From an uncultured delta proteobacterium (GTDB lineage: Bacteria; Desulfobacterota; BSN033; UBA1163), in NCBI GenBank assembly GCA_963827685.1, contig CAWHBU010000002.1, positions 288,001-352,000 of the forward strand: 64,000 nucleotides of DNA, written 5' to 3'. The notes beneath the pieces are model-generated. The model saw only the letters and a program-made list of their open reading frames with translations, was not told the origin of the DNA and did no database searches. A program made the position numbers and the translations under genes. Below are positions 2,845 to 19,697 of this stretch, in pieces. The stretch's first letter is position 1. Every line of letters begins with the position of its first letter.

Positions 2845-2909
2845 TAAACCCCGCATGCCTTATGCGCCTTTGCTATGCGGTGGGTTGGATAAAAATGGAG
2901 GTTTTCCAA

Positions 2910-3197: not shown

Positions 3198-3259
3198 GCA
3201 GCTTATAACACCTTGTTCCTGACTCCTTCCGTTTTACGGTCTTAAGGAATATAGAGAAA

Positions 3260-4237: not shown

Positions 4238-4284
4238 GTTAAACGCTATGCGCTTTGCTCTATGGTATAGATAGGAGTTAGATA

Positions 4285-5277: not shown

Positions 5278-5406
5278 AATACGGCAAGGGGGAAGGCTTA
5301 ACAGCTCTAACGACTAACGCCATTGCGACTTGCGCCTTACGACCGGCGGTCTTTACAGTAAATAACGCTTTGCGCTATGCACTCTGCACTATGCGAGGTT
5401 TTGTAA

Positions 5407-5904: not shown

Positions 5905-5907
5905 AAA

Positions 5908-6005
5908 GCTTGAGTTTATTGCGTTTCTTGAGTCTATTGAGTTTATTGTGTTCTTTGAGTTGAAACCCAATTAACACAATGAACCCAAGCAACTCGATAA
6001 ACACT
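5908..6005. repeat. Inverted pair of degenerate 9-nt tandem arrays (about 6 x NNTTGRGTT, then 4-5 x AACYCAANN)
   Basis: gcttgagtt tattgcgtt tcttgagtc tattgagtt tattgtgtt ctttgagtt / aacccaatt aacacaatg aacccaagc aactcgata. Confidence 0.85.
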
Positions 6006-6090
6006 AAAGAATAACCTTAACCCACACTTATCGTGGATCTTACACTACAATATTTTGATCTTTTTCGTAGAATTGAATGAAATTCGAACC

Positions 6091-6102
6091 GGCGGTAGCT
6101 TG
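6091..6102 (+). promoter_or_regulatory. ops-like RfaH recruitment element
   Basis: GGCGGTAGCTTG matches the enterobacterial ops consensus GGCGGTAGnnTG, between the rfaH-like gene and ~40 kb of co-oriented genes. Confidence 0.75.
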
Positions 6103-6207
6103 CATTGGGTTTGTTGAGTCCATAGAGTTATTGGGTTTCTTGTGTTCCGTAGATTGAGTGATCCAACAAACTCAATAAACACAATGGACCTACCGAACCC
6201 AAGGGAC
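6103..6207. repeat. Second inverted pair of 9-nt arrays directly upstream of the four-helix-bundle gene
   Basis: cattgggtt tgttgagtc catagagtt attgggtt tcttgtgtt ... aactcaata aacacaatg gacctaccg aacccaagg. Confidence 0.8.
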
Positions 6208-6209
6208 AA

Positions 6210-6668
6210 ATGAAGATAGCTCGTTTTGAAGATATAGAGGCATGGCAAGAAGCAAGAAAACTTGTGACAATGGTTTACGATGCCATAAAGAAGAACCCCC
6301 AGTTTCGGAGGGATTTCCGCTTGGTAGGTCAGGTGCAGGACGCTGCAGTATCCTGCATGTCAAATATTGCGGAAGGTTTTGCGAGAAGGAGTAACAGGGA
6401 GTTTATCCAATTCCTTTTTATATCCAAGAGTTCGGCAGCAGAAGTTCAAAGTCAATTCTACGTAGCCTTAGATCAGGGGTACGTTATCAAAGATGATTTT
6501 GGGAGGATTTATGACCAGGCTGAGATAGTATCTAAACTGGATTCGGGTTTTATAAAGTATCTGAATTCGACGTTTGAGAATCGTCCTAAACGCAATCAAC
6601 TCAACAAACCCAATAAACCCAACGAACCCAATAAACCCAACGAACCCAATGAACCCAATAACTCATAG
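6210..6668 (+). CDS. Four-helix-bundle protein (23S rRNA IVP / bAvd-like family) with a repeat-encoded NKP/NEP tail
   Basis: RFEDIEAWQEA, QVQDAAVSCMSNIAEGFAR and EFIQFLFISKSSAAEVQSQ are family hallmarks. 6590-6666 is a 9-nt tandem array. Confidence 0.9.
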   Translation: MKIARFEDIEAWQEARKLVTMVYDAIKKNPQFRRDFRLVGQVQDAAVSCMSNIAEGFARRSNREFIQFLFISKSSAAEVQSQFYVALDQGYVIKDDFGRIYDQAEIVSKLDSGFIKYLNSTFENRPKRNQLNKPNKPNEPNKPNEPNEPNNS

Positions 6669-6694
6669 ACTTTTAAGAGATAGCGGAGGTACCC

Positions 6695-6880
6695 ATGATT
6701 ATCAAAGCTTGTTTAAAATGTAAATTTCATGAGATTAAACAGGACGGAAAAGAAGAGGCGAGTCACTGTAGGAGGGAAAACTGTTGGTCTCGGTACTCCA
6801 AGTGTGTCCTTGCAAAGGCCCTCGAAAAGTTTTTGAAAGAAGAATCCTCTCGACATGAACAATCCCTCTCCGCCTTTTAA
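6695..6880 (+). CDS. Small Cys-rich hypothetical protein
   Basis: GGAGG RBS; CLKCKFH...HC...C...C pattern in 61 aa. Confidence 0.6.
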   Translation: MIIKACLKCKFHEIKQDGKEEASHCRRENCWSRYSKCVLAKALEKFLKEESSRHEQSLSAF

Positions 6881-6974
6881 TTTGTTTTGCTTATTTATTA
6901 GCGCGCTGCGTCATGCCTGCCATCCGCAAGGCTTTTGGAAGCGGGTACTTGGCTCTATGTATCGTATCAGCAAG

Positions 6975-7132
6975 ACCGCAACACAACAGTACTTAACAAC
7001 TTATTGTCTATTATCTCAATAACTCACTCGCTTAATAACTTGATAACCCAACAAACTCCATAAACCCATTGAACTCAAATAACCTTGTTACCGCAGCACC
7101 CAATAACCCAATAACCCATTTACTTACTAACT
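6975..7132. repeat. Stack of degenerate short-period repeats (8-mer, taactt/taactc type and 9-mer AACYCAAT)
   Basis: aacccaaca aactccata aacccattg aactcaaat ... gcagcacc caataacc caataacc. Confidence 0.75.
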
Positions 7133-7133
7133 A

Positions 7134-8714
7134 ATGAAATTATCTAAGTCTAAACGTCTATGGGTTATCATATTGATCGCACTCTTGTTGTTTGCCGCAA
7201 AGGCCTATTACGACACCAACTCCATCGAGGTCAGGCATTACCAGATCGAAAATTCATCATTGGGAGAAGTTTTAAATGGTTTAAAAGTGGCCCACCTTTC
7301 GGATCTTCACGTCAAAACCATCGGTTTGAGGGAAAGCAAGATATTAGAAATCCTGAAAGAAGAAAAACCAGATCTTATTTTTATTACTGGGGACTTAATA
7401 AGTTTTCAAGGACCTTATGAACCGGTGATGTCATTTCTCTATCAATTGAAACCTCCTCTTGGTGTTTATGCTGTTTTAGGCAACACAGAATATTCCAATG
7501 AAAATGGTTCATGTACCCTCTGCCATAAAGAAAAGTCAAGAAACTTAAAAGAGAGTCATGGTGTAGTTTTTTTGAGGAATTCCTCTGGACCTTTAAAAGT
7601 CAATGGAAAGGTCATTAACATTATTGGAGTGGATGACCCTGTTTTGAAAAAGAGTGATTTGAAAATTGCACTGAAGGGGGCGAACCCTGATCATCCATCA
7701 ATTGTGTTGGCCCATTCCCCGGAGATTTTTGACGAGGCATCTGAATTTGGATTTGATCTTCTTCTCAGCGGCCATACCCACGGAGGCCAAATCTTTCTCA
7801 CTAAGTATCTCAGAAAGATATTTCCTCTCGAAGCGTCTCTCGAATTCATCGAAGGATTCTTCCAGAAGGGAAAGCTGCTGATGTATGTAAGCCGAGGCAT
7901 TGGAACGAGTTACGTTCCTTTCCGTCTCGGTGTAAAACCTGAAATCACCTTCTTCAAGTTCTCGAATAATACGAGTAAAGAAAAGATGCGAATGGCCCAA
8001 ATGGACAAAGCAAACCAGTCAAATTCATCCCGTGAAGTGCCAAGCCTATTTCACTGGGACTCAACCAACCCAAGTAACTCAACGAACCAAACAAGCTCAA
8101 TGAACTCAACGAACCGAATAAGCTCCCTTCTAATCTCCAACCATCCTTCCAATACTATCTTTTCAGGCATTAGCATTTCTTCTATATTGGAGACTTTCGA
8201 TCTTCTGAGTATCATTCGCAAATCATTTGCATCGAATCATTCGCGAGATTCAAATATTTTATTCGACTTCGAATCAGATTCTGATTTAAAGCGGCTGAAC
8301 TGGCAGTGCCATAAATGGTTCGAGCTTTCCGAAGAACATGCAACCTCCGGTAAACATAGCCTTAAGGTTATCCTACCACCAGGTCAATATCCAGGAATAA
8401 GTTTTAAAGATATAAAGAAGAATTGGTCGAGCAGCCATTATTTTAAAATGGATATCTTTAATCCTTCAGATGAGACATTAAAGTTTCATATCCGCATCGA
8501 TGACAACAAGAGCGGTTGGGAATATGCCAACCGTTTCGACATTAATTTCTATTTAAGACAAGGAACAAACTGTGTTTCAATTCCTGTAGATTCAATCAAA
8601 ACGAATATCGATCATCGGCCTCTCAATTTAAAGAAAATAAAAGGGATGATGGTTTTTGTTCCCAATAGTACGAAAAAAAGAGAGATCTATCTCGACAACA
8701 TCCGATTGGAATAA
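7134..8714 (+). CDS. Metallophosphoesterase (YkuE-like) fused to a C-terminal carbohydrate-binding-like beta-sandwich; carries an in-frame repeat insertion at ~7993-8125
   Basis: DLH, TGD, GNTE, AHSP and GHTHGG motifs, N-terminal signal/TM, and a C-terminal LFDFES...IYLDNIRLE domain. Confidence 0.8.
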   Translation: MKLSKSKRLWVIILIALLLFAAKAYYDTNSIEVRHYQIENSSLGEVLNGLKVAHLSDLHVKTIGLRESKILEILKEEKPDLIFITGDLISFQGPYEPVMSFLYQLKPPLGVYAVLGNTEYSNENGSCTLCHKEKSRNLKESHGVVFLRNSSGPLKVNGKVINIIGVDDPVLKKSDLKIALKGANPDHPSIVLAHSPEIFDEASEFGFDLLLSGHTHGGQIFLTKYLRKIFPLEASLEFIEGFFQKGKLLMYVSRGIGTSYVPFRLGVKPEITFFKFSNNTSKEKMRMAQMDKANQSNSSREVPSLFHWDSTNPSNSTNQTSSMNSTNRISSLLISNHPSNTIFSGISISSILETFDLLSIIRKSFASNHSRDSNILFDFESDSDLKRLNWQCHKWFELSEEHATSGKHSLKVILPPGQYPGISFKDIKKNWSSSHYFKMDIFNPSDETLKFHIRIDDNKSGWEYANRFDINFYLRQGTNCVSIPVDSIKTNIDHRPLNLKKIKGMMVFVPNSTKKREIYLDNIRLE

Positions 8715-8904
8715 CCCGTAAACACTGCAAGCCGCAAGGTGTTAAGGGTAGGCAGAATGAAACTTAAACGGCAACACTGCAGAATAGCAGCACCGCAGAG
8801 CATGGACACCCAGTCCTCTGTCCACTGTTTTTCAAATTCGCCTCGCACCTCACGCCTGACGCTTTGAATCTATCGCTAAGCGCTACAGATTTTAAGGTCT
8901 AATT

Positions 8905-10881
8905 ATGTGTGGCATCGCCGGAATTATTGATTTTGGCTCCTCCGAGCCAAAAGAACAACTCCTTCGTCGTATGCTGGGGTTTATCCGTCATCGTGGCCCC
9001 GATGCATTCGGCATTTATACAGATCGGATTGCGGGAATAGCCTCCGCTCGGCTGAGTATTATCGACCTTAGTGGTGGAGACCAGCCCATTCATAATGAAG
9101 ATCAATCCATTTGGGTCGTTTATAATGGAGAGATCTTTAACTACCCAGAGATTCGGCAGGATCTGGAGGCTCGAGGTCATAGATTCTACACTCGATCCGA
9201 TACGGAAGTCTTGGTCCACTTGTACGAAGACGAAGGCCCGGAGCTTTTCAAAAATCTTAACGGCCAGTTTGCCTTCGCTCTATGGGATAAGTCAAAGGAA
9301 TGTTTACTTCTTGGTCGCGATCGCATTGGCATTCGCCCCCTTTTTTATTATCTGGAAAATGACCGTCTGGTTTTTGGTTCGGAGGTGAAGGCTATATTTG
9401 CAGACGCAAGGGTTCCCAGATCCCTCGATTTCCAAACCTTATCAGACGTATTTACCTGTTGGGCGCCCTTGGGACATCTCACAGCTTATCAAAGAGTTTA
9501 TCAACTCCTCCCAGGGCATTATGCACTGTTCTCACGTCAGGGAATGGTTACCCGTCCTTACTGGCAACTCTCCTTTTCAGAATCATACGATAATGGGGCT
9601 CGTTCCCTGGGTGAATGGACTGATGAATTGGCAGCACTCTTGTGCGACGCTACCAGAATTCGTCTTCGCGCAGATGTCCCTGTAGGATCTTATCTTAGCG
9701 GTGGACTGGATAGTACCTATATTACTTCTCTTGTAAAACGGTTTTTTAATAATAAACTCTGCACCTTTTCGGTTAGTTTTACAAACAGTCGTTTCGATGA
9801 AGCCTCATATCAGGAGAAGGCTGTTCGGTCCCTACAGACCGACCATCAAACCATTCGTTGTACGGAGAAAGATATCGGAGAAGTTTTTCCTCAGGTCGTA
9901 TGGCACACCGAAGCACCCATTCTTCGCACAGCGCCAGCTCCTCTGTTTATGCTTTCCAAATTGGTTCGAGAAAACAACTTTAAAGTAGTTCTTACGGGGG
10001 AAGGATCCGACGAAATCTTCGCTGGTTATGATATATTTAAGGAAGATCGAGTACGGCGTTTCTGGGCTCGGAAGCCAGAATCCCGAATGCGCCCAAAGCT
10101 TCTCAGAAGACTCTATCCTGACGTATTTCGCAAAGAGGATTCCCGGGCGGGAGCATTTCTTGAGGGCTTCTTCAGGAGGGGGCTTGACCAGGTGAATTCT
10201 CCAGCTTATTCTCACATGATTCGCTGGGAGAATGCTAACTTCATAAAGACGTTTTTTGCCGATGAACTACAAAAAAGGATTGGATATGAAGATGGTTTTG
10301 TCAACCGATTTATATCTATGCTTCCTCAAGACTTTTTGAAGTGGGATCCACTTTCAAGGGCTCAATATGTGGAGATTTCCATTTTCCTTTCGAACTACTT
10401 GCTCTCCTCTCAGGGAGACCGCGTAGCGATGGCACACTCCGTAGAGGGGCGGGTACCTTTTCTTGATTATCGGGTCATTGAGTTTGCATGCAAGGTTCCC
10501 CCGCGATTTCGTTTGAACGGTCTTAAAGACAAGTATATCTTACGTAAAGCCGCCCATAACCTTATTCCAGCAGGAATGGACAATAGGCCAAAACAACCCT
10601 ATCGTGCACCCATCAGCCAATGTTTTTTGGGAAATCATAATCATGATTATGTAGAGGAACTACTTTCAGAAGGTGCGCTTCGGCAAACTGGATATTTTCA
10701 CCCAGGCAAGGTAGCAAAACTTTTGGAGAAATGCCGGAAACAGGAAGGATACCTGCTGAGCGAGCGCGAAAACATGGCGCTGGTTGGAATTATTTCCACC
10801 CAGTTGTTGGATTATCAATTTGTTCGAAATTTTCTAAAGTACCCAATTCACGAACCAGAAATTGTTAAGACTTTCAGATAA
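8905..10881 (+). CDS. asnB: Asparagine synthase (glutamine-hydrolysing) family amidotransferase
   Basis: MCGIAG, HRGPD, RLSIID, NGEIFN, LSGGLDS, GEGSDE, EGRVPFLD. Confidence 0.92.
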   Translation: MCGIAGIIDFGSSEPKEQLLRRMLGFIRHRGPDAFGIYTDRIAGIASARLSIIDLSGGDQPIHNEDQSIWVVYNGEIFNYPEIRQDLEARGHRFYTRSDTEVLVHLYEDEGPELFKNLNGQFAFALWDKSKECLLLGRDRIGIRPLFYYLENDRLVFGSEVKAIFADARVPRSLDFQTLSDVFTCWAPLGHLTAYQRVYQLLPGHYALFSRQGMVTRPYWQLSFSESYDNGARSLGEWTDELAALLCDATRIRLRADVPVGSYLSGGLDSTYITSLVKRFFNNKLCTFSVSFTNSRFDEASYQEKAVRSLQTDHQTIRCTEKDIGEVFPQVVWHTEAPILRTAPAPLFMLSKLVRENNFKVVLTGEGSDEIFAGYDIFKEDRVRRFWARKPESRMRPKLLRRLYPDVFRKEDSRAGAFLEGFFRRGLDQVNSPAYSHMIRWENANFIKTFFADELQKRIGYEDGFVNRFISMLPQDFLKWDPLSRAQYVEISIFLSNYLLSSQGDRVAMAHSVEGRVPFLDYRVIEFACKVPPRFRLNGLKDKYILRKAAHNLIPAGMDNRPKQPYRAPISQCFLGNHNHDYVEELLSEGALRQTGYFHPGKVAKLLEKCRKQEGYLLSERENMALVGIISTQLLDYQFVRNFLKYPIHEPEIVKTFR

Positions 10882-10924
10882 ATAATGCAAAACGGATCCG
10901 TTGGAATGATAACGGCAGCCAACA

Positions 10925-11152
10925 GGACCCTCGAGCGCTTGAATCGTTGACGTCTTTAGAACACCTTACGCTTTATGTTTGACGTTCGTTATTGAATTTA
11001 CCATGCGCTCTGCTTCATGCATTGTTAAAGCGGCACCGCGGCACCGCCACACATATAAAATCACCTTAGCCCATCGGCTTGCGCCTTACGCATAACTTAG
11101 AAGACTCAATAACCCAATAAACCCAATGACCCAATCAACTCAATAAACCCAT
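10925..11152. repeat. Intergenic stack of several repeat families (ttgaatc, ccttacg, ccatgcg, gcggcacc and the 9-mer)
   Basis: gaccctcgagcgcttgaatcgttgacg; ccatgcgctctgcttcatgc; gcggcaccgcggcaccgcc; cttgcgccttacg; aacccaata aacccaatg acccaatc aactcaata. Confidence 0.7.
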
Positions 11153-11165
11153 AGTGGAGTTAACC

Positions 11166-12809
11166 ATGCCAGAATATTCATCTACTCCCACAGGTGAAAA
11201 ATTTCCATTACCGGAGTCGGGAGACTACATTAAAGAGTTCGAGCGATTACGAGAAATGGCAAATAGCCAACGTGCTTTAGGCCGGGAGATCGTTTTAGTA
11301 ATGGGGTTGGGGTTTGTAGGGGCTGTTATGGCAGCTGTGATTGCTGACGCAGAAGATAAGAAAGGCAATCCTACAAAGTTCGTTATTGGGATGCAGCGGC
11401 CAAGCCCTCGGAGTTATTGGAAGACACCTTTGCTTAATCGTGGAATATCACCGGTGAGTTCGGAAGATCCTGAGGTTCCATTGATGATCAACCGCTGTGT
11501 CAATGAAAAAAAGACGCTGATGGCTACGTACACATACGATGCGCTCAAGCTTGCAGATATAGTGGTGGTGGATGTTCAATGCGATTATTTAAAAGAATCG
11601 CTTGGGAATGTGAAGGATGGTCGGGCAGGTATGGAGGCATTAGAGGAGTCTTTGGAGATCATAGGGCAACATATCAATCCGGAGACGTTGGTTTTGATCG
11701 AGACAACTGTGGCTCCGGGTACAACAGAACAGGTGGCGTACCCGATCATAAAAAAGATGTTTCGGAAACGTGGCATCGAAAAAGACCCGCTCCTCGCCCA
11801 CAGCTTTGAACGGGTAATGCCAGGGAGAAATTATGTATCGAGCATCCGCGATTTCTGGAGGGTATGCAGTGGAGTAAATGAAGAATCCACGCGGAGAGTT
11901 GCCAAGTTCTTGAACGAAGTGCTGAATACGGAGAAGTTTCCATTGACAGTACTCGATAGACCTATCGAGTCTGAGACAGCCAAAATCGTTGAGAATAGCT
12001 TTCGGGCAACGATTCTTGCTTTTCTCGACGAGTGGAGCCTTTTTGCAGAACAAAATGGTGTGGACTTAATCAAGGTGATCAATGCAATCAAGGTCCGCCC
12101 TACACATAGCAATATCATATTTCCGGGGCCGGGCATTGGTGGTTACTGCCTTCCTAAAGATGGTGGCTTAGGTCTTTGGGCATACCGACATATCCACGGA
12201 TTTGAGGATAATATTTTTAAAATGACACCACTTGCGATCGATATTAATGATACCAGGTCACTTCATGTGGCACAACTTGCCCGTGATGCACTCAGGAACA
12301 TGGGGCGACCCATTGCATCCGCAGAGATTCTGGTGCTGGGAGCTTCTTATAGGGAAGATGTAGGAGATACAAGATACAGCGGCTCTGAGTTGATCGTCAG
12401 GCGGTTGACAGAAATGGGAGCAGAATTGAGGGTTCACGATCCTTATGTGCTCCACTGGTGGGAATTTGAAAAACAGGATGAGTATCCTGTCTCTTCACAT
12501 AGTTTGAAGAGATTTTTCCGTGGCCAGGAGAAACTAAAAGATCTTCGGGTAGAACAGGATGTGAAAAAGGCATTGCGTGGTACGGACGCGGTCATTCTTG
12601 CGGTAAGGCACAAACATTACTTGGATCTTGATCCGGACGATGTGGTGAAAAGCGCAGGCGGGTCGATAGCCGTGATTGACTGTTTCGGTATCCTCGATGA
12701 CAAAAAGATAAGACGCTACTTCGAACTTGGATGTGAGGTCAAAGGTCTAGGCCGGGGGCACGTAAAACGAATCAAGGATCAAGTGCAGAGGGAAAAGAGT
12801 AACAAGTGA
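11166..12809 (+). CDS. Nucleotide-sugar dehydrogenase (UDP-glucose/GDP-mannose dehydrogenase family)
   Basis: GLGFVG, ETTVAPGTT, ERVMPG, GPGIGGYCLPKD, DTRYS. Confidence 0.88.
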   Translation: MPEYSSTPTGEKFPLPESGDYIKEFERLREMANSQRALGREIVLVMGLGFVGAVMAAVIADAEDKKGNPTKFVIGMQRPSPRSYWKTPLLNRGISPVSSEDPEVPLMINRCVNEKKTLMATYTYDALKLADIVVVDVQCDYLKESLGNVKDGRAGMEALEESLEIIGQHINPETLVLIETTVAPGTTEQVAYPIIKKMFRKRGIEKDPLLAHSFERVMPGRNYVSSIRDFWRVCSGVNEESTRRVAKFLNEVLNTEKFPLTVLDRPIESETAKIVENSFRATILAFLDEWSLFAEQNGVDLIKVINAIKVRPTHSNIIFPGPGIGGYCLPKDGGLGLWAYRHIHGFEDNIFKMTPLAIDINDTRSLHVAQLARDALRNMGRPIASAEILVLGASYREDVGDTRYSGSELIVRRLTEMGAELRVHDPYVLHWWEFEKQDEYPVSSHSLKRFFRGQEKLKDLRVEQDVKKALRGTDAVILAVRHKHYLDLDPDDVVKSAGGSIAVIDCFGILDDKKIRRYFELGCEVKGLGRGHVKRIKDQVQREKSNK

Positions 12810-12901
12810 CGAATAAAAAGTGATGAGTGACGAGAATTAAGAAATTGATTAATAACTCATTCACATGATAACTTGATAACCCAGAGAACCCAAAGAACCC
12901 A

Positions 12902-14386
12902 ATGAACCCAGATACTCGAAAAACCAAAATACTCAGTGATGTTTATGCTGTCATCCTTGCGGGTGGGTCTGGGACAAGGTTTTGGCCTCTAAGCAGGGAG
13001 ACTCGTCCCAAACAAATGCTTCAGATTGTGGGAGAAGACACCTTGCTTCGGCAGACCGTTAATCGTATCGATGGATTAGTCCCCCCAGAGAATATCTGGA
13101 TTGTGACAACAGAAGACATGGCTTTAGATATTCGTTTCCATTTGGAATCATTTGGAGAATTAGCAAAGAAGATTAAATTTATCAAAGAACCTATAGCGAA
13201 AAACACAGCTCCAGCAATTGGTTTGGCTGGTATTTATCTCAATCATTTATTCCCTCAATCGGTGATGATTGTGATGCCTTCTGATCATGCCATTCCTGAT
13301 AGAGAAAAGTTCTTAAGTGACTTAAAACTCGCAATCCAAGGGGCGAGAGAAGATCATCTTGTGACTTTTGGAATCAAGCCGAGCCGGCCTGAAACTGGTT
13401 ACGGATATATCAAGGTTGAGAACGCTTCAAATATCGAGAAAAAAGGTCTTCGCAAGGTTGAATGCTTTGCTGAAAAACCTGACCTTGAAACTGCAAAGAA
13501 GTACCTTTCTAATGGGAGCTATTACTGGAACTCTGGGATCTTCATCTGGAAGACCTCCAAAATCCTCTCCGAAATCGAAAAATATCTTCCCGACCTTTAC
13601 AAGGGTTTAAAAGAAATGGAGTCGCTTCTGTTTGAACCCAATCAACCCAATAAACCCAACGAGCCCAATAAACTCAATAAACTCAAGGAACTCTATTCTC
13701 ATTTGGAGTCCATTTCTATCGATAAAGGCATCATGGAGCGCAGTCGTAACATCCTAATGGTTCCTGCCACTTTTCAGTGGTCTGATTTGGGGAGTTGGAG
13801 CGCTCTGGATGAAATCATTGAAAAAGATAAAGAGGGAAATATCCTCAAGGGGAATACAATTGATATCGGGAGCCAGAACTCAACTATCTATGGAGGCGAC
13901 AGACTCATTGCCACTATTGGGCTTAAGGATATGGTAGTGGTAGATACTCCTGATGCGACTTTGGTAACTCCAAAGGAGAGGGTCCAGGAGGTTAGAAAGA
14001 TTGTTGAGATATTAAAACGGAATGGTCGAGAAGAGCATCTGCTACATAAGACGGTTGAAAGACCCTGGGGGAGCTATACGGTGTTGGAAAAGGGACAGGG
14101 ATATAAAATCAAGAGAGTTGTTTTGAAGCCCGGAGCCAGATTGAGTCTTCAACTCCACAAGAAAAGAAGTGAGCACTGGGTCGTAGTAACGGGAACAGCC
14201 AGAGTAACGAAAGAAAATGAGACATACCTGGTTCATATCAATGAAAGCACTTACATTCCTGTAAACACTAAGCACCGTTTAGAAAATCCTGGGGAAGTTC
14301 TCCTCCAGATCATCGAAGTTCAAAACGGAGAATATCTCGAAGAAGATGATATAGAGCGCTTCGACGACGACTATGGTAGAATTTAG
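12902..14386 (+). CDS. manC: Mannose-1-phosphate guanylyltransferase / mannose-6-phosphate isomerase, with an in-frame 9-mer repeat insertion
   Basis: ILAGGSGTRFWPLSR, WNSGIF, WSDLGSW, and a C-terminal cupin RPWG...LSLQLH..RSEHW. Confidence 0.93.
   Translation: MNPDTRKTKILSDVYAVILAGGSGTRFWPLSRETRPKQMLQIVGEDTLLRQTVNRIDGLVPPENIWIVTTEDMALDIRFHLESFGELAKKIKFIKEPIAKNTAPAIGLAGIYLNHLFPQSVMIVMPSDHAIPDREKFLSDLKLAIQGAREDHLVTFGIKPSRPETGYGYIKVENASNIEKKGLRKVECFAEKPDLETAKKYLSNGSYYWNSGIFIWKTSKILSEIEKYLPDLYKGLKEMESLLFEPNQPNKPNEPNKLNKLKELYSHLESISIDKGIMERSRNILMVPATFQWSDLGSWSALDEIIEKDKEGNILKGNTIDIGSQNSTIYGGDRLIATIGLKDMVVVDTPDATLVTPKERVQEVRKIVEILKRNGREEHLLHKTVERPWGSYTVLEKGQGYKIKRVVLKPGARLSLQLHKKRSEHWVVVTGTARVTKENETYLVHINESTYIPVNTKHRLENPGEVLLQIIEVQNGEYLEEDDIERFDDDYGRI
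13635..13697 (+). repeat. In-frame 9-nt tandem array inside manC (EPNQPNKPNEPNKLNKL)
   Basis: aacccaatc aacccaata aacccaacg agcccaata aactcaata aactcaagg. Confidence 0.9.
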
Positions 14387-14480
14387 CACTTAACACAGCT
14401 GCAAAGTGGCGCAGCAGCACCGCAACACTGCGGCGCTTGGTATAACCCCTTACTCCTTACGACCTACGCTTTACGTATTT

Positions 14481-15407
14481 ATGAATAAAACTATTCTCCT
14501 AACCATCGACGTAGAAGATTGGTTCCAGGTAGAAAACTTCAAGGAACACATTCCATTTTCTTCCTGGCCGGAGTGTGAACTGCGCGTCGAAAAAAATGTC
14601 CATAAGATCCTCGATCTTCTCGACTCCATTAAACTCAATAGCTCAATAAACCCAATGGACCCAATAAACCCAATGAACCCAATAAACTCGATAAACCCCA
14701 AAGCAACCTTCTTCATTCTTGGCTGGATCGCAAAACGGTTGCCTCATCTTGTCCGTGAAATTCAAGCCCGGGATCATGAGGTTGCCTCCCATGGATATGA
14801 GCATAAACTTTGCAGAGACCAATCAGTGGATGATCTGAAAAAAGATTTGGTTAAAAGCAAGAAACTTCTTGAGGATTTGATTGGAAATCCCATTTACGGC
14901 TATCGCGCCCCCAGTTTTTCTATCGATAATGGTATCCTGAAAATAGTGGAGGAAGCGGGCTATTCTTATGATTCAAGTTTTAATTCTTTCAAGCTGAATA
15001 GACGATATGGACAAATCAGTCTAACAAATAATGGGAATAATGGGATTTATCATCAAATTTCTGAAAAGTTTTACGAGCTTCCAATCAGCAATCTAAAAAT
15101 TGGAAATCAGGTGATCCCGTGGGGAGGCGGAGGATACTTTCGGCTAATGCCTTTGCCGCTGTTCAAACGAGGAGTTGAGAAAATACTCAAGAAAAAGGGA
15201 GCTTACCTTTTTTACTTGCATCCCTGGGAGATTGACTCTGATCAACCCAAGATTTCGGAGATCGCTCGATCTTTTAAATTCAGACACTATTTGAACCTCG
15301 ATAAAACATACAGAAAGTTATCTATGCTTCTGAAATCATTCAAAGGGTGTCGTTTTCCAACTTGCATGGAGTTTCTTCGAGGTATCCATGAACCAACACC
15401 CAACTAA
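14481..15407 (+). CDS. Polysaccharide deacetylase, PEP-CTERM-locus subfamily (DUF3473), with an in-frame repeat insertion
   Basis: TIDVEDWFQ, ATFFILGW, HEVASHG, GYRAPSFS, GGGYFR, YLHPWE. Start inferred at MNKTILL. Confidence 0.9.
   Translation: MNKTILLTIDVEDWFQVENFKEHIPFSSWPECELRVEKNVHKILDLLDSIKLNSSINPMDPINPMNPINSINPKATFFILGWIAKRLPHLVREIQARDHEVASHGYEHKLCRDQSVDDLKKDLVKSKKLLEDLIGNPIYGYRAPSFSIDNGILKIVEEAGYSYDSSFNSFKLNRRYGQISLTNNGNNGIYHQISEKFYELPISNLKIGNQVIPWGGGGYFRLMPLPLFKRGVEKILKKKGAYLFYLHPWEIDSDQPKISEIARSFKFRHYLNLDKTYRKLSMLLKSFKGCRFPTCMEFLRGIHEPTPN
14622..14703 (+). repeat. In-frame 9-nt tandem array inside the deacetylase (SINPMDPINPMNPINSINP)
   Basis: aacccaatg gacccaata aacccaatg aacccaata aactcgata. 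Confidence 0.9.
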
Positions 15408-15560
15408 CCCGATAAACTAAAGTAACCCAATGAAACCATTGAACCGCAGCACCGCAGTACAGCAGCACATAATAACTTATTCACTTAATAACTTGACAAC
15501 CCAATGAACCCAAGCAACCCAATCAACTCCAGTAACTCAACAAACTCAATAGACCCGACA
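15390..15560. repeat. Intergenic stack of 9-mer and 8-mer (gcagcacc) repeats
   Basis: aacccgata aactaaagt aacccaatg; ccgcagcaccgcagtacagcagcac; aacccaatg aacccaagc aacccaatc aactccagt aactcaaca aactcaata. Confidence 0.8.
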
Positions 15561-17126
15561 ATGACTTTAATACATCATTTTCTCGAACGGAGCGCTAATC
15601 TTTTCCCTAACAAGACCGCTCTTGTTCACGGCAATGTAAGGGCTACCTACAACCAGATAAACAACCGGGCAAATAACCTTGCTGTTCACTTAATCGAAAA
15701 TGGACTTACTCCGGGTGACAGGGTTGCGCTCCTCATGGAGAACTGCCTTGAATACGTCATCAGCTATTACGGAATATTGAAAGCCGGGGCAGTTGTAGCT
15801 CCACTCAACAGCGACTTGAAATCGGAAGGGCTAAGAGCAATTCTAACCGAACTTGAGGCCAAGTGTGTTATCTCATCATCAAGATGGGAGAAGCTTTTGC
15901 AGGAGGTGGACTTGGCAGCATGTGGTATTCAAGAACTAATCTTGAGAGCCCCTAAGCTAAAATGGTCATCAGCACCATACGTGGTGAGCGACTTGGATAG
16001 CCTGTCTGAAGCTCGGCAAACACGAAATCCGGATATCCAAATTCAGGAAAGCGATCTGGCAAGCATCGTTTATACATCCGGGTCTACTGGTGGCCCCAAA
16101 GGGGTTATGTTATCTCAACAGAATGTTGTTCACAATACCTTCTCCATCTGTGAATACCTCCATCTTACCCACGAGGACATACAGATGGTTGTTTTACCCT
16201 TTTTTTACGTGATGGGGAAATCGCTTCTAAATACCCATTTTGCAGTGGGCGGATCTATTGTGATCAATAACAAGTTTGCCTTTCCAGCCACGGTCCTCAA
16301 CGAGATGATCTTGGAGAAGGTAACAGGATTATCGGGAGTACCATCGACATTTGCCTACCTTCTGCATCGCTCTCCTCTGGCTAATAGCCGCGATAAGCTG
16401 AGCTCACTCCGATATTGCAGTCAGGCAGGCGGACATATGTCGACGGCAATCAAAGAGGAGTTGAGGCGTGTTTTACCGACTCATACAGCGATTTACGTCA
16501 TGTACGGAGCGACTGAGGCTGCCGCCAGACTTTCCTACCTTGAGCCTTTACGGTTCGAGGGCAAGATGGACTCAATTGGAGAAGCTATACCTGGTGTCAC
16601 CCTGAAGGTTCTGAATGATAGTGGAGAAGAGGTTCCTGTAGGCCAGGTTGGTGAGCTGGTCGCAGCGGGAACCAATATTATGAAGGGCTACTGGAAGAAT
16701 CCGGAGGCTACGGCGAAGGTTTTGGTTGATGGATGGTATCATACTGGTGATCAGGCTTATCAGGATGAGGAAGGGTTTTTCTACCTCATGGGGAGGAAAG
16801 ACGATTTACTCAAAGTAGGCGGGCATCGTATTAATCCCCAGGAGATTGAAGATACACTTATGAAATCAGGAATGTTTATAGAAGCCGTGGTTGTGGATGT
16901 TCCCGACAAACTCCTTGGCAACAAGCTGGTCATCCTGGCGGTTCCAATAAATGGTGAGTGTAGCAAGAACAAGGTCCTCGTTTACTGTGCGGATAAATTA
17001 CCCAAATACAAAATGCCTTCTGATTTGAAATTCATGCGTACACTACCAAAGAAGACCAGTGGCAAGATCGACCGCAATTTCTGCCGTGACCTGTACAAGC
17101 AACTGCAACCAACTTACAGCGGATAG
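15561..17126 (+). CDS. AMP-forming acyl-CoA/acyl-ACP ligase (ANL superfamily)
   Basis: YTSGSTGGPKG, YGATE, HTGD, GRKDD, SGKIDR. The extra N-terminus called from 15504 is repeat-derived. Confidence 0.9.
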   Translation: MTLIHHFLERSANLFPNKTALVHGNVRATYNQINNRANNLAVHLIENGLTPGDRVALLMENCLEYVISYYGILKAGAVVAPLNSDLKSEGLRAILTELEAKCVISSSRWEKLLQEVDLAACGIQELILRAPKLKWSSAPYVVSDLDSLSEARQTRNPDIQIQESDLASIVYTSGSTGGPKGVMLSQQNVVHNTFSICEYLHLTHEDIQMVVLPFFYVMGKSLLNTHFAVGGSIVINNKFAFPATVLNEMILEKVTGLSGVPSTFAYLLHRSPLANSRDKLSSLRYCSQAGGHMSTAIKEELRRVLPTHTAIYVMYGATEAAARLSYLEPLRFEGKMDSIGEAIPGVTLKVLNDSGEEVPVGQVGELVAAGTNIMKGYWKNPEATAKVLVDGWYHTGDQAYQDEEGFFYLMGRKDDLLKVGGHRINPQEIEDTLMKSGMFIEAVVVDVPDKLLGNKLVILAVPINGECSKNKVLVYCADKLPKYKMPSDLKFMRTLPKKTSGKIDRNFCRDLYKQLQPTYSG

Positions 17127-17306
17127 CGCATAGCGGTTTTGATGGGCCACCCTATAGGATATAACTCAAAACTGGTCCCGTAAGAAGTGGTCAAATTTAG
17201 ATTCCATGATTCAAAGATGAACAGTCGCAATGTCCATGTATCGATTAAGATTCTCGATTACGCTATGCTCTGGCTATACGCTGCGCTCATCTGATGAGGT
17301 ATCCCA

Positions 17307-18158
17307 ATGAACTCAACAAACTCAATCAACCCAAGTAACTTAAAATTATTTACTATAAGCTTGATCATGTCAATCATCATCAGTTGTGGAGGAAAAATGG
17401 ACGAGAAGAAAAAGGTATTTCCGTCAATAAAGGACGTTCCGGAGGCTTCATGGAAGAAGCTTGCCGAGAAGCGCATTTATTTCGGCCACCAATCTGTGGG
17501 ATATAACATTCTTGACGGTATGAGAGACATCATGAAGGAAAATCAACAAATAATATTGAACATTGTCGAAACCAGTAACCCAGAAGACTTTAAAGCCCCG
17601 ATATTTGCCCACTCCCGGGTTGGAAAGAATGAAGATCCCAAATCAAAGTGCGATTCTTTTGCAGATATCATAGAAAAGGGACTTGGAAATAAAACAGACT
17701 TTGCCTTTTTTAAATTTTGTTTTGTAGATATTACAGTTGGAACGAATGTTGAAAAAGTTTTTAATGATTATAAGAGCACAATGTCTGCATTAAAACGAAA
17801 ATATCCTCAAGTAGTTTTTATTCATTTTACGAGTCCTCTTATGACGGTACAAACGGGTATAAAGGCCTTAATTAAAAAAATAATTGGAAGATCTATTGAT
17901 GGATACGATGAAAACATTAAAAGAAATCAATTTAACGAAATGCTAAGGAAAGAATATGAGGGAAAAGAGTTAGTATTCGATCTCGCGCAAATCGAATCAA
18001 CTTTTCCAGATGGGACGAGAGCAACCTTCAATAGAAATGGGAAGACGTATCTGAGATTGGTTTCAGACTATACAAATGATGGTGGCCATCTGAATGCTAA
18101 GGCTCGAAAAAAAGTAGCGGAGCTACTACTGATCCTACTAGCAAATATCTCAAGGTAA
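17307..18158 (+). CDS. Putative lipoprotein with SGNH/GDSL-like fold
   Basis: Lipobox-like IIISCGG, FGHQSVG and DGGHLN; start codon uncertain. Confidence 0.6.
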   Translation: MNSTNSINPSNLKLFTISLIMSIIISCGGKMDEKKKVFPSIKDVPEASWKKLAEKRIYFGHQSVGYNILDGMRDIMKENQQIILNIVETSNPEDFKAPIFAHSRVGKNEDPKSKCDSFADIIEKGLGNKTDFAFFKFCFVDITVGTNVEKVFNDYKSTMSALKRKYPQVVFIHFTSPLMTVQTGIKALIKKIIGRSIDGYDENIKRNQFNEMLRKEYEGKELVFDLAQIESTFPDGTRATFNRNGKTYLRLVSDYTNDGGHLNAKARKKVAELLLILLANISR

Positions 18159-18213
18159 TCGACAATTTTGTTTTTACTATCACCTATCAGCAATAAGCCA
18201 TAAGCCTGCTTGA

Positions 18214-18306
18214 TAACCCAATCAAACCGATTACCCCAAATAACCCTATGAACTTAACGAACTCGGTTAACCAAGAAACCCAACGACCCCAATAAACCCA
18301 GGCAAC
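18214..18306. repeat. Last 9-mer array of the 5' part of the cluster
   Basis: aacccaatc aaaccgatt accccaaat aaccctatg aacttaacg aactcggtt aaccaaga aacccaacg accccaata aacccaggc. Confidence 0.8.
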
Positions 18307-18462
18307 TCTTCTGCTCTTATTCTGATTACTGTTGACCCGGGGGATAGTTCCATGTGGAAATATTTCGGGAATGTATTCCATTTTCTTTGTGGGCATTTTG
18401 TGAAAGCCAAGCACTTTATTAGATATTATTATTCCGTTTTCCTGGATTATGTTCGAGGATAA

Positions 18463-19614
18463 ATGAAGGTGCTTTTAGGGCACTGGTTGTTCTGGGGATC
18501 GCTGTTTATGGTGGGATACATTTATTTTGGCTATCCCTTTTTAGTTTTAATTCTGGCTGGGATAAAGGATAAAAAAGTGAGGAAGACCCCATCTACCCCT
18601 TTCGTATCGATTATTATAGCTGCCTACAATGAAGAAAGGTATATTGAAGAGACCATAACGAATAAACTTACCTTGGATTACCCAGGAGACAAATGCGAGG
18701 TCATCGTTATCTCGGATGCCTCTGAAGATAGGACTGATGACCTGGTGAGGAAATATGAACATCTGGGAGTGAGACTTATCCGACAGGACCCGCGGTCCGG
18801 AAAAACGTCTGCCCTTAATCGTGCAGTGCTGGAAGCAAAAGGAGACATCATTGTATTTTCGGATGCCAACTCGATATACGAATCTGATGCTCTGGAAAAA
18901 CTTGTTCAGAACTTTAATGATCCTGAGGTTGGATATGTAACAGGGAAGATGGTCTACACGAACCCCGCTGGCGCCCTTATCGGAGATGGATGCACCGCTT
19001 ATATGAAGTACGAAAATTTCCTTAGAAAAATGGAAACGAAACTGGGCTCAATAGTTGGGGTGGATGGGGGAGTTGATGCTGTTCGTAAATCGCTCTATCG
19101 GCCAATGAAGCCCGACCAACTTCCTGATTTCGTCTTGCCTTTGAAGGTCTTCGAACAAGGCTACCGAATTGTATATGAACCGGAAGCCGTTCTCAAAGAG
19201 GCGTCCTCGAAGTCCTCCACGGATGAATTTAAAATGCGGACCCGGGTGTCCTTGAGGGCCTTCTGGGCCTTGAGAGATATGTGCGGCCTCCTGATTTTCA
19301 GACCTTCGAGGCTCTTCGCATGGCAGATATGGTCGCATAAAGTCTTCCGATATTTCTGCTTTGTATTTCTTTTGGGAGCTTACTTTGGCAATATCTTTCT
19401 TTGGTCTGCGGGCACTTCCTACAAACTCTTTTTTATTGCCCAAAATTTGGCATACCTTGGAGCTATGGTGTCTCCGTTTCTCGAGCGAAAAGGGCACCGT
19501 TTCTTATTCGCGCTAAACTACTTTGTATTGCTTAACGGGGCTGCAATGTATGCATTCATAAAGTTCATCGCGGGCCAAAAACAGGTAATATGGACTCCCA
19601 GAAAAGGACAGTGA
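18463..19614 (+). CDS. Glycosyltransferase family 2 (CESA-like) with TM helices
   Basis: IIAAYNEE, SDASEDRT, GKTSALN, FSDAN. Confidence 0.9.
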   Translation: MKVLLGHWLFWGSLFMVGYIYFGYPFLVLILAGIKDKKVRKTPSTPFVSIIIAAYNEERYIEETITNKLTLDYPGDKCEVIVISDASEDRTDDLVRKYEHLGVRLIRQDPRSGKTSALNRAVLEAKGDIIVFSDANSIYESDALEKLVQNFNDPEVGYVTGKMVYTNPAGALIGDGCTAYMKYENFLRKMETKLGSIVGVDGGVDAVRKSLYRPMKPDQLPDFVLPLKVFEQGYRIVYEPEAVLKEASSKSSTDEFKMRTRVSLRAFWALRDMCGLLIFRPSRLFAWQIWSHKVFRYFCFVFLLGAYFGNIFLWSAGTSYKLFFIAQNLAYLGAMVSPFLERKGHRFLFALNYFVLLNGAAMYAFIKFIAGQKQVIWTPRKGQ

Positions 19615-19697
19615 CGGGCTATGTTTATTTTATGGGCCAGTGAAATGCCAAGCAGCACCTTTAACATCTTACTCACTAAGGAGGCTATATATCCACC

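What the first reader, a model, noticed from the sequence alone, without database searches (positions are those of the whole stretch)
13635..14703. 9-nt repeats inserted in-frame into conserved enzymes, read in different frames
Seen: ManC carries EPNQPNKPNEPNKLNKL, the deacetylase SINPMDPINPMNPINSINP, and the phosphoesterase (8058-8125) STNPSNSTNQTSSMNSTN. All are the same AACYCAANN DNA read in two different frames, so the DNA rather than the peptide is the conserved unit. Only the 9-mer family, a multiple of 3, sits inside gene bodies; 7- and 8-mer families are intergenic or at gene ends. Inference: the insertion process is blind to coding status and selection keeps only frame-preserving events in tolerant loops.
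Basis: partly seen in the sequence, partly recalled or inferred. Interest (0 to 1): 0.8.

Follow-up and report, generated by a model that had tools for sequence, protein, structure and literature searches.

The report
In-frame 9-base repeats inside enzymes
A nine-base DNA repeat that fills many gaps between genes in this Syntrophaceae-like bacterium also sits, in frame, inside flexible loops of three ordinary enzymes; this is a tolerated DNA-level insertion of a broadly known kind, though the repeat family has some unexplained habits.

Summary
AACYCAANN arrays lie in ManC (13635-13697), the XrtA-type deacetylase (14640-14702) and a phosphoesterase (8058-8120). They are read in the only two stop-free sense frames. 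Their unit profile matches that of intergenic arrays.

All three are insertions or hypervariable segments:
- ManC relatives at 53% identity or less lack the segment.
- About 50 clade members carry 10-44 extra residues at that same site.
- These extras are mosaics of 9-, 8- and 7-nt repeat families.
- AlphaFold models put the ManC and deacetylase arrays in lower-confidence inter-element segments.
- Contigs of close strains differ from the window by whole-unit indels. One is -18 nt, in frame, in the deacetylase.

Elsewhere 7- and 8-mers occur in frame as blocks of three or more units.

The family is genome-wide (66 arrays, 17 of them in this exopolysaccharide (EPS) cluster) and was found in 26 of 41 relatives. 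It forms 19 inverted pairs, always G/T-rich arm first and never the reverse. The same spacer in near-identical relatives can hold unrelated repeat cassettes.

Best reading: slippage-prone, copy-spreading repeat DNA filtered by selection. The polarity is unexplained.

The parts
13635..13697 (+). 9-nt array (about 6-7 units) inside ManC (GMP_PMI, ORF 12902-14386), read as CCC-AAT-NAA: PNQPNKPNEPNKLNKL
   Evidence: NCBIfam TIGR01479; absent from 2x5s and from orthologues at 53% identity or less
14640..14702 (+). 9-nt array (about 7 units) inside the XrtA-system polysaccharide deacetylase (14481-15407), read as AAC-CCA-ATN: SINPMDPINPMNPINSINP
   Evidence: TIGR03006; coil between helix 36-49 and strand 75-79, with 10-residue block mean pLDDT of 57 and 42; an 18-nt deletion in one contig of run X1
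8058..8120 (+). degenerate 9-nt array in the linker of a metallophosphoesterase (7134-8714), read as AAC-CCA-ATN: STNPSNSTNQTSSMNSTN
   Evidence: Metallophos domain at residues 50-217; linker slice is 51-120 aa in 120 orthologues
6589..6660 (+). 9-nt array (8 units) forming the C-terminal tail (NKPNKPNEPNKPNEPNEPN) of a 23S_rRNA_IVP-family ORF (6210-6668)
   Evidence: a 19-nt deletion in one contig of run X1
5908..6008 (.). inverted array pair: G/T-rich arm 5908-5961, then A/C-rich arm 5964-6008
   Evidence: RNA fold -28.9 kcal/mol, z -5.4
6103..6204 (.). inverted array pair: G/T-rich arm 6103-6155, then A/C-rich arm 6160-6204, ending 5 nt before ORF 6210
   Evidence: z -3.7
7015..7118 (+). 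36-nt conserved block (7015-7050), 9-nt array (7045-7080) and 8-nt ACCCAATA array (7098-7118), all upstream of the phosphoesterase start at 7134
   Evidence: an 8-nt deletion in one contig of run X6
11111..11154 (+). 9-nt array directly upstream of a GGAG and the ATG near 11166 of the NDP-sugar dehydrogenase
   Evidence: a 17-nt insertion in one contig of run X1
12848..12913 (+). 36-nt conserved block (12848-12883) and 9-nt array (12878-12913) that supplies the ManC start codon (AACCCA-ATG)
   Evidence: a 9-nt deletion in one contig of run X2
15397..15560 (+). mosaic of repeat blocks: 9-nt array 15397-15441, 8-mer ACCGCAGC 15443-15468, 36-nt block 15468-15503, and 9-nt array 15498-15560 that overlaps the start of the acyl-CoA ligase ORF (15504)
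17301..17345 (+). 9-nt array encoding the N-terminus (MNSTNSINPSN) of ORF 17307-18158
18215..18303 (+). degenerate 9-nt array in the spacer before ORF 18463

Best explanation
The three coding segments are copies of a dispersed DNA repeat family, AACYCAANN. It is one of many 6-9-nt short-tandem-repeat (STR) families that fill the intergenic spacers of this Syntrophaceae-like lineage.

Shown here:
- The arrays change length in whole units.
- The same unit profile occurs in spacers, at gene starts, at gene ends and inside genes.
- Inside genes the arrays occupy only stop-free frames and hypervariable loops, linkers or termini.
- The same protein sites carry other repeat families in relatives.

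Inferred:
- Unit number changes by replication slippage.
- Arrays and whole mosaics of repeat blocks spread between sites by a copying step, either ectopic recombination or template switching seeded by shared arrays.
- Selection then removes every event that shifts the frame, brings a stop, or falls in folded protein.

On this reading the enzymes gain nothing from the arrays; they merely tolerate a disordered N/P/K/S-rich loop.
For: - Unit profile: identical in 153 intergenic, 44 start-overlapping and 21 coding-interior units.
- Frames: the two frames used are the only two stop-free sense frames. Antisense frames 1 and 2 are almost wholly stop-free (one stop in each of two arrays) but encode I/G/F/L/V/W-rich peptides.
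- ManC across relatives: the slice between two anchor motifs is 38 aa in L228 and L230 and 46 aa in L244, all at 51% identity or less. It is 48-82 aa in the other 49 of the 52 loci that had both anchors.
- ManC insert content: mosaics of 9-mers, GCGCTAT and CCGCAAT heptamers and GCAGCACN 8-mers. In L216 and L217 a whole inverted pair is translated through.
- Reading frame: in all 65 loci with both anchors (52 + 13 of 87) the anchors share a frame.
- Deacetylase: the loop slice is 58 aa in the window. It is shorter in 75 of 80 orthologues, and 39 aa is the commonest value.
- Phosphoesterase: the linker slice ranges from 51 to 120 aa over 120 orthologues and holds the same repeat-derived peptides.
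- Structure: model confidence falls at both arrays. In ManC the 10-residue block means are 75 and 66, against 94-97 before and 88-93 after. In the deacetylase they are 57 and 42, against 97 and 95.
- Strain variation: six of the seven indels listed against contigs of four runs lie inside repeat arrays and are roughly whole units: -19, -8, +17, -9, -18 and a doubtful -1. The seventh (+18 at 6842) lies outside the 9-mer arrays.
- Local copying: a 36-nt block next to the arrays occurs three times in the genome, all three in this operon.
Against: Slippage plus neutral filtering does not explain the following.
- Polarity: 19 abutting pairs are ordered G/T-rich arm then A/C-rich arm, and none the reverse. 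With exact patterns the count is 17 distinct sites (my count) in 10 of 41 genomes against 0 of 41.
- Position: the A/C-rich arm ends a few to a few tens of bases before the next start for most + strand genes.
- Persistence: all 16 same-genus or sister-genus loci keep a murG-murC spacer, and 14 of them carry a recognisable repeat hairpin. The repeat family there differs even where MurC is 99% identical.
- Age: the unit is retained across three families of the class.
- RNA pairing: there is a weak excess of G.U over A.C mismatches in the sense-strand hairpins, 34 against 19.

Limits of the data. No raw reads were available, only contigs, and each indel rests on one contig. No contig bridges the ManC array. 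My gene calls are crude: longest ORF plus a codon score.
Confidence: 0.55

Rival explanations
1. The arrays are mobile cassettes, comparable to miniature inverted-repeat elements (MITEs) or Rickettsia palindromic elements (RPEs). An unknown machinery inserts hairpin elements built of tandem units into preferred sites. The coding copies are in-frame survivors of such insertions.
For: - Unrelated repeat cassettes occupy the same murG-murC spacer in relatives whose MurC is 89-99% identical, while 7 loci from other families of the class have no recognisable spacer element.
- A complete inverted pair sits in frame inside ManC of L216 and L217.
- The same unit families recur at dozens of loci, including a prophage-like region.
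- RPEs are a precedent for in-frame palindromic insertions (PMC10969869, passages read).
Against: - There is no fixed element length or consensus; arms range from 3 to 11 units.
- No terminal sequences or target duplications were identified, and I did not search for them systematically.
- Strain differences are whole-unit indels, as slippage predicts.
- The 25 Y1-transposase hits show no proximity to the arrays: 14 arrays within 2.5 kb against about 21 expected.
Confidence: 0.2
2. The arrays are functional cis-elements: an RNA leader or hairpin, or binding sites for a symmetric DNA- or RNA-binding protein. They would tune translation, mRNA processing or transcription polarity of the EPS operon and of many other genes. 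Coding copies would be either functional internal sites or spill-over.
For: - Strict polarity and nearness to start codons.
- All unpaired arrays in the window's + strand operon are in sense orientation.
- Hairpins fold far better than shuffles: z -3.5 to -8.7 in the 7 pairs tested.
- G.U exceeds A.C in the sense strand, 34 against 19.
- The murG-murC spacer is kept in 16 of 16 same-genus or sister-genus loci.
- Similar claims were made for paired tandem sites in Geobacter metallireducens (PMC2700814) and for TAACTGA repeats (PMC4679880) (passages read).
Against: - Sequence family and unit number are not conserved at orthologous sites.
- Pairs precede functionally unrelated genes: rmlD, phage genes, nuo, ftsQ, murC, tyrS, a release factor.
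- No Rfam family matches.
- Promoter-like and terminator-like sites are not above shuffles.
- No binding partner is known and no RNA data were available.
Confidence: 0.17
3. The peptides themselves are selected: N/P/K/S-rich flexible linkers that benefit the three enzymes.
For: - The inserts persist in every clade member examined at the ManC site.
- Borg tandem repeats are argued to be selected as disordered regions (abstract of 10.1101/2022.05.18.492195).
Against: - The same DNA is read in two frames and gives different peptides.
- Variation falls at fixed unit positions, not at third codon positions.
- Peptide content at the same site differs wholly between relatives: PNK, ALCAMHYA, IPQSAIRNPQW, QQHCSTA.
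- Orthologues outside the clade do without the segment.
Confidence: 0.05

Closest known systems
Long simple sequence repeats of prokaryotes (units of about 5-11 nt)
   Same: Head-to-tail short units; heptamers are the commonest class; units that are multiples of three are the ones most often seen inside coding regions. This is as summarised in the Introduction of PMC4679880 (passage read; the original survey is recalled, not read).
   Different: Here one unit family is dispersed over dozens of loci and across a bacterial class. It is read in two frames, forms polar inverted pairs, and shares protein sites with 7- and 8-nt families.
Paired tandem-repeat sites of Geobacter metallireducens ('global regulator binding sites') and its 49 GGACCGG x4 elements
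   Same: Three to five tandem repeats of 7-9 nt, mostly in pairs on opposite strands at variable distance. One family is found within genes as well as between them (PMC2700814, passages and supplement legends read).
   Different: The unit sequences differ. The polarity rule, the in-frame reading and the turnover between species are not described in the passages I read.
TAACTGA direct repeats of Beggiatoaceae and cyanobacteria
   Same: Short direct repeats, mostly intergenic, in forward orientation a few bases upstream of start codons. Those in ORFs sit at protein ends (PMC4679880, passages read).
   Different: TAACTGA has stops in all forward frames, so it cannot be read through. Only one inverted set is reported there. 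The unit here is 9 nt and translatable.
Rickettsia palindromic elements (RPEs)
   Same: Palindromic repeat DNA inserted in frame into unrelated metabolic genes, and judged compatible with the protein fold (PMC10969869, passages read).
   Different: RPEs are elements of about 150 bp with family consensus sequences. The arrays here have no fixed length and change by unit slippage.
Borg tandem repeats
   Same: Tandem repeats both between genes and in ORFs; fast-evolving; A-rich; in ORFs they create disordered regions; 'conserved hotspots' are reported (abstract and outline of 10.1101/2022.05.18.492195).
   Different: Per the abstract, Borg repeats arise independently and give perfect amino-acid repeats. 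Here the copies are imperfect, the unit is shared among many loci and genomes, and the host is a bacterium.
Cyanobacterial STRR heptamers
   Same: Abundant intergenic tandem heptamers.
   Different: This comparison is recalled from memory only; nothing was tested here.

Membership tests
Slippage-prone simple sequence repeat | Head-to-tail copies of one short unit | tested here: met
   TRF period 9, 5.8-8.3 copies; 40 matches against 0.25 expected
Slippage-prone simple sequence repeat | Copy number differs between close strains by whole units | tested here: met
   Contig indels of -9, -18, -8, +17 (9+8) and -19 lie inside arrays. Each rests on one contig; no raw reads were available. Unit numbers also differ among ManC orthologues.
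Phase-variable contingency locus | Repeat changes switch the reading frame on and off | tested here: not met
   The unit is a multiple of 3. None of the 65 ManC loci with both anchors is out of frame.
MITE / Rickettsia-palindromic-element type | Defined length and consensus with terminal inverted repeats | tested here: not met
   Arms have 3-11 units, the two arms are unequal, and gaps between arms are 0-32 nt
MITE / Rickettsia-palindromic-element type | Target-site duplication | not tested
   No element ends could be defined
MITE / Rickettsia-palindromic-element type | In-frame presence in unrelated conserved genes at tolerant sites | tested here: met
REP/BIME with a RAYT transposase | Association with a Y1 transposase | tested here: not met
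   25 PF01797 hits, but 14 arrays within 2.5 kb against about 21 expected. No test separated RAYT-type from IS-type copies.
Geobacter-type paired tandem sites | Three or more tandem 7-9-nt units, paired on opposite strands | tested here: met
   19 pairs for the 9-mer. 151 of 499 heptamer arrays and 36 of 125 8-mer arrays have an inverted partner within 250 nt, against 4 and 0 for the reversed-unit control.
TAACTGA-type leader repeats | Forward orientation ending a few bases before a start codon | tested here: inconclusive
   The A/C-rich arm ends within about 42 nt of my crude start calls for most + strand pairs, but 3 of the 19 gaps exceed 200 nt. Starts are not verified.
Borg-type tandem repeats | In-ORF repeats that form disordered regions | tested here: met
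   10-residue block mean pLDDT of 57 and 42 (deacetylase) and 75 and 66 (ManC) at the arrays
Borg-type tandem repeats | Each repeat region arises on its own, with perfect copies | tested here: not met
   The same unit occurs in 66 arrays and in 26 of 41 genomes; TRF reports 65-91% matches within arrays
Intrinsic terminator | GC-rich hairpin followed by a T run | tested here: not met
   13 terminator-like sites against 13.0 expected, none at the arrays. The 3' arm and what follows it are A/C-rich.
Any Rfam RNA family | Covariance-model match | tested here: not met
   0 matches at E <= 0.1 in window 1-20000

The most novel reading that the evidence does not exclude
The coding insertions are collateral of an undescribed, lineage-wide repeat system. 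Polar hairpin cassettes built of 6-9-nt tandem units, with the G-rich arm 5' and the C-rich arm 3', are written or copied in front of genes by a dedicated mechanism. They are exchanged between near-identical genomes and act on the transcript next to the start codon. That would be a new class of bacterial repeat element or regulatory layer, not ordinary microsatellite noise.
Probability: 0.15. Interest if true: 0.8.

Novelty: new variant of a known kind. Interest (0 to 1): 0.5.

Why it matters
This is a clean natural case of repeat DNA being read through as protein. The same 9-nt unit yields two different peptides in different enzymes. One loop of ManC has hosted at least five repeat families in related organisms without ever losing its frame.

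It identifies three sites (a ManC inter-helix loop, a helix-to-strand loop of the NodB-type deacetylase, and a phosphoesterase linker) that tolerate 10-45 arbitrary residues. That is useful for protein engineering and as a caution for annotation, since start codons, C-terminal tails and N-termini here are partly repeat-derived.

The arrays also break short-read assemblies, because contigs end at them.

The wider pattern is strict arm polarity, placement before start codons, and cassette replacement at fixed spacers. I did not find it described for this lineage in my literature searches. It could point to a regulatory or mobile mechanism worth testing.

Tried and rejected
- No RNA holder was listed among the sequencing runs, so nothing can be said on expression.
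- Read laying failed three times because the machine was busy and answered on the fourth identical request. No contig bridges the ManC array, so its strain-level copy number is unknown.
- The built-in control (the pattern read backwards) is invalid, because AACCCAA reads the same backwards. I ignore it.
- The phosphoesterase gave no relative in genome contigs and only domain-level hits within the family. Orthologues came from the protein database instead.
- The deacetylase has no close orthologue in 25 relatives (best 47% identity). The two homologues found have short, repeat-free loops.
- Rfam gave no match.
- The sigma-70 and terminator scans are not above shuffles.
- The Y1 transposases show no association with the arrays.
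- Phase variation by frameshift: none seen in 65 loci.
- A link to EPS genes only is rejected. Pairs also precede rmlD, phage genes, nuo, ftsQ, murC, tyrS, a release factor and an ArsA-like gene.
- My idea that the polarity exists to avoid a U-rich 3' arm (a terminator filter) is not supported for the 6-8-mers. Their 3' arms are more often T>A (74 against 50); the shared rule is G-rich or purine-rich 5' and C-rich or pyrimidine-rich 3'.
- L007 was dropped from alignment A1 because its match holds a stop codon.
- Supplementary files of PMC2700814, which hold the alignments of the paired sites, could not be seen and may bear on the polarity question.
Full report
**1. What is there**

The window is G000:C2:288001-352000 of a 5.23-Mb, 14-contig assembly with 46-48% G+C. 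Its completeness is 94.5% and its contamination 8.0%. The region 7-19 kb is an XrtA/PEP-CTERM-type exopolysaccharide (EPS) cluster. It holds these genes:

| Coordinates | Product (NCBIfam) |
|---|---|
| 7134-8714 | YaeI/LpxG-like metallophosphoesterase |
| 8905-10881 | asparagine synthase / XrtA amidotransferase |
| 11154-12809 | NDP-sugar dehydrogenase |
| 12902-14386 | ManC (TIGR01479) |
| 14481-15407 | XrtA-system polysaccharide deacetylase (TIGR03006, match in two stretches) |
| 15504-17126 | exosortase-associated acyl-CoA ligase |

The closest named relatives of ManC are metagenome-assembled genomes labelled Syntrophaceae or 'Deltaproteobacteria'.

**2. The observation**

TRF reports period-9 arrays at the three stated places. 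A two-unit pattern matches 40 times in the window against 0.25 expected. The quoted peptides are in the ORF translations.

ManC reads the unit as CCC-AAT-NAA. The deacetylase and the phosphoesterase read it as AAC-CCA-ATN. The third sense frame is closed by TAA/TGA in every translated array. Antisense frames 1 and 2 are almost wholly stop-free but would encode I/G/F/L/V/W-rich peptides. So the 'two frames' are simply the two stop-free, hydrophilic ones.

A fourth translated array forms the C-terminal tail of a PF05635 protein (6589-6660). Arrays also supply or overlap the starts of ManC, of ORF 15504 and of ORF 17307.

**3. DNA unit or peptide**

Unit profiles are the same in 153 intergenic, 44 start-overlapping and 21 coding-interior units. 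Positions 1, 2, 3, 5, 6 and 7 are near-invariant, position 4 is C or T, and positions 8 and 9 are free. Variation therefore follows the DNA unit and not codon positions.

**4. Are they insertions?**

*ManC.* The solved T. maritima enzyme 2x5s has a 14-residue gap exactly at the array. Genome orthologues at 53% identity or less lack the segment, and L001-L007 carry it at the same site.

I then examined 87 genome and metagenome loci:
- 52 had both flanking anchor motifs.
- The slice between the anchors is 38 aa in L228 and L230 and 46 aa in L244, all at 51% identity or less.
- It is 48-82 aa in the other 49 loci.
- A looser pattern recovered 13 more loci with both anchors. Their slices are 38-40 aa (distant relatives) or 42-63 aa.
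- In all 65 loci the two anchors share a frame.

The DNA of the inserts is a mosaic. It contains AAACCCAAT/AAACCAGAT 9-mers, GCGCTAT x3 (peptide ALCAMHYA), CCGCAAT x4 (IPQSAIRNPQW), GCAGCACN 8-mers (QQHCSTATLQHS), a CAATGACT-like unit (PNDSMTQ) and small GC hairpins. In L216 and L217 a complete inverted pair is translated through.

*Deacetylase.* The slice across the loop is 58 aa in the window. It is shorter in 75 of 80 orthologues, most commonly 39 aa. Five orthologues have other low-complexity fillers of 60-84 aa. Two same-genus homologues (44-47% identity) have short, repeat-free loops.

*Phosphoesterase.* The 120 full-length orthologues (54-86% identity) have a linker slice of 51-120 aa. 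The window's is 101 aa and the median is 77.5 aa. The linkers are filled with NP[ST]N-type and AAPQHxxTAA-type peptides.

**5. Structure**

The ManC model has mean pLDDT 75.8. It places the array between helix 230-243 and helix 258-266. The 10-residue block means there are 75 and 66, against 94-97 before and 88-93 after; the model draws short strands in part of that stretch.

The deacetylase model has mean pLDDT 86.8 and pTM 0.89. It places the array in a coil between helix 36-49 and strand 75-79. The 10-residue block means there are 57 and 42, against 97 and 95 in the flanks. Solved NodB-fold proteins align only from about residue 65 onward.

I could not compute solvent exposure.

**6. Variation among strains**

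Contigs of four metagenome runs from four studies were laid on 6500-15600. Six of the seven indels listed fall inside repeat arrays:

| Position | Change | Run | Context |
|---|---|---|---|
| 6625 | -19 | X1 | 9-nt array, tail of ORF 6210-6668 |
| 7098 | -8 | X6 | 8-mer array, intergenic |
| 11111 | +17 | X1 | 9-nt array, intergenic |
| 12885 | -9 | X2 | 9-nt array at the ManC start |
| 14644 | -18 | X1 | deacetylase array, in frame |
| 8067 | -1 | X1 | next to a contig joint, doubtful |
| 6842 | +18 | X2 | outside the 9-mer arrays |

Each indel rests on one contig. Contigs end at the ManC array, so its copy number in these strains is unknown.

**7. The wider family**

With my own crude gene calls, the genome holds 66 arrays of three or more AACNCAANN units. 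Of these:
- 40 are intergenic.
- 14 overlap a gene edge.
- 9 lie inside a gene on the same strand. By eye, four of these are A-rich chance matches.
- 3 lie inside a gene on the opposite strand. All three are weak.

Seventeen of the 66 lie in C2:283.8-306.3 kb, which is this cluster. About 20 lie in C4:756-832 kb, which includes rmlD, a prophage-like stretch and the nuo genes. The family was found in 26 of 41 relatives searched: 13 of 14 same-genus genomes, several other genera, and two further families of the class. It was found in none of the three genomes related only at phylum level.

It is one of many families. The table counts TRF arrays of at least 2.8 copies.

| Period | Arrays | Intergenic | Deep in my ORF calls |
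|---|---|---|---|
| 7 | 499 | 351 | 25 |
| 8 | 125 | 78 | 17 |
| 6 | 116 | 66 | 32 |
| 9 | 83 | 37 | 32 |

Several of the 'deep' heptamer arrays lie in long, well-scoring ORFs. The period-9 rows include repeats unrelated to the AACYCAANN family.

**8. Inverted pairs and polarity**

Thirty-eight of the 66 arrays form 19 abutting pairs. Every pair is 5'-(TTGRGTTNN)n(AACYCAANN)m-3'; none has the opposite order. With exact patterns the same order is found at 17 distinct sites (my count of 21 forward matches) in 10 of 41 genomes. The opposite order is found in 0 of 41.

The pairs fold into imperfect hairpins, with z-scores of -3.5 to -8.7 in the 7 tested. They lie downstream of one gene. For most + strand cases the A/C-rich arm ends within about 42 nt of the next start as I called it.

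Among the 6-8-mers:
- 151 of 499 heptamer arrays and 36 of 125 8-mer arrays have an inverted partner within 250 nt. The reversed-unit control gives 4 and 0.
- Left arms are G>C in 76 cases against 31, and right arms are C>G in 84 against 39.
- Left arms are purine-rich in 78 against 25, and right arms are pyrimidine-rich in 96 against 26.
- Arrays 50-100 nt upstream of a start are G>C in 103 against 27. Arrays 0-20 nt upstream are C>G in 95 against 73.

In 18 aligned 9-mer pairs, G.U-type mismatches in the sense strand outnumber A.C-type by 34 to 19. This is a weak hint of pairing at the RNA level.

**9. Turnover at a fixed site**

I compared the murG-murC spacer in 16 loci of the genus and its sister genus, where MurC is 89-100% identical to G000's over the first 120 residues:
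- 7 carry the AACYCAA inverted pair, with different unit numbers.
- 2 carry an AAACCAGAT/AACTAAA variant.
- 2 carry a CACCCTC/GAGGGTG pair. One of them is L280, whose MurC is 99% identical to G000's.
- 3 carry an AAATGTC/TTTGACA pair.
- 2 are unclear.

Seven loci from other families of the class show no recognisable spacer element. In G000 the left arm of the pair is read as the C-terminal tail of MurG.

A 36-nt block next to the arrays occurs only three times in the genome, before the phosphoesterase, ManC and the ligase. Two of the copies are 30/36 identical to the third.

**10. Interpretation**

The coding arrays are best read as members of a slippage-prone repeat family that also spreads by copying, and that selection filters: frame kept, no stops, disordered sites only. 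Confidence is 0.55.

Seven- and eight-nt families also enter genes as in-frame blocks. And the process is not shown to be blind: the same sites are reused, and the intergenic arrays are polar and lie close to start codons.

Rival readings are a mobile cassette (0.2), a cis-regulatory hairpin or leader (0.17) and selection on the peptide (0.05). The polarity is unexplained. My terminator-avoidance idea fails for the 6-8-mers.

**11. What is known**

- The general rule that multiple-of-three units are the ones seen in ORFs is summarised in PMC4679880 (passage).
- Paired tandem 7-9-nt sites and an intragenic heptamer element are described for Geobacter metallireducens (PMC2700814, passages; supplements not seen).
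- In-frame palindromic elements are known from Rickettsia (PMC10969869, passages).
- Tandem repeats that create disordered regions, with conserved hotspots, are known from Borgs (10.1101/2022.05.18.492195, abstract).
- My searches found no description for Syntrophus or its relatives. The library lacks many subscription papers, so this does not show that none exists.

**Verdict**

This is a real feature and a new variant of a known kind. The enzyme insertions themselves are of moderate interest. The family's polarity and cassette turnover are of higher interest.

Noticed in passing
L263-L285 (murG-murC spacer; G000:C3:767958-768020): The same intergenic spacer carries at least four unrelated repeat-hairpin cassettes within one genus, including in a genome whose MurC is 99% identical to G000's. 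Other families of the class show no recognisable spacer element. In G000 the left arm is translated as the MurG C-terminal tail.
   Followed up: partly
window 7015-7050, 12848-12883, 15468-15503: A 36-nt block (itself a degenerate TAATAACT 8-mer run ending in TTGAYAACCCA) occurs only three times in the genome, each just before a 9-nt array upstream of a gene of this operon.
   Followed up: partly
window 50593-53794, 53779-54213, 54222-55066, 58996-59837: Long tandem repeats: a 213-nt unit x15 (96% matches) and a 123-nt unit x6.9 at two places, inside very large ORFs. They are unrelated to the 9-mer family.
   Followed up: no
G000:C4 about 775-812 kb (L172, L173): A prophage-like stretch (capsid PF25209, tail PF13550) whose short gene spacers carry several 9-mer inverted pairs of the host's family.
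   Followed up: partly
G000, 25 places (for example C4:636157-636519): 25 Y1-transposase (PF01797) matches, 18 of them with the same score and length, suggesting an active IS200/IS605-type element. They show no proximity to the repeat arrays.
   Followed up: partly
window 14390-14430 and 15443-15468: The 8-mer family GCAGCACC/ACCGCAGC lies in the spacers here. Read through, it gives 'AQQHRNTAA', the same peptide type found in frame inside ManC and the phosphoesterase linker of relatives (L188, L233, P0010, P0016).
   Followed up: partly
L003 (record labelled Methanotrichaceae archaeon): A 4.2-kb contig binned as an archaeon carries a bacterial-type ManC that is 74% identical to the window's, with the same 9-mer and heptamer arrays. 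It is probably a mis-binned contig.
   Followed up: no
L007:6001-7497: The ManC match of this relative contains one in-frame stop codon. Its insert is non-repetitive filler of similar length.
   Followed up: no
window 6500-15600 (tables 5 and 7): Metagenome contigs end at the arrays or are joined chimerically between different arrays. The repeat family breaks short-read assemblies.
   Followed up: no
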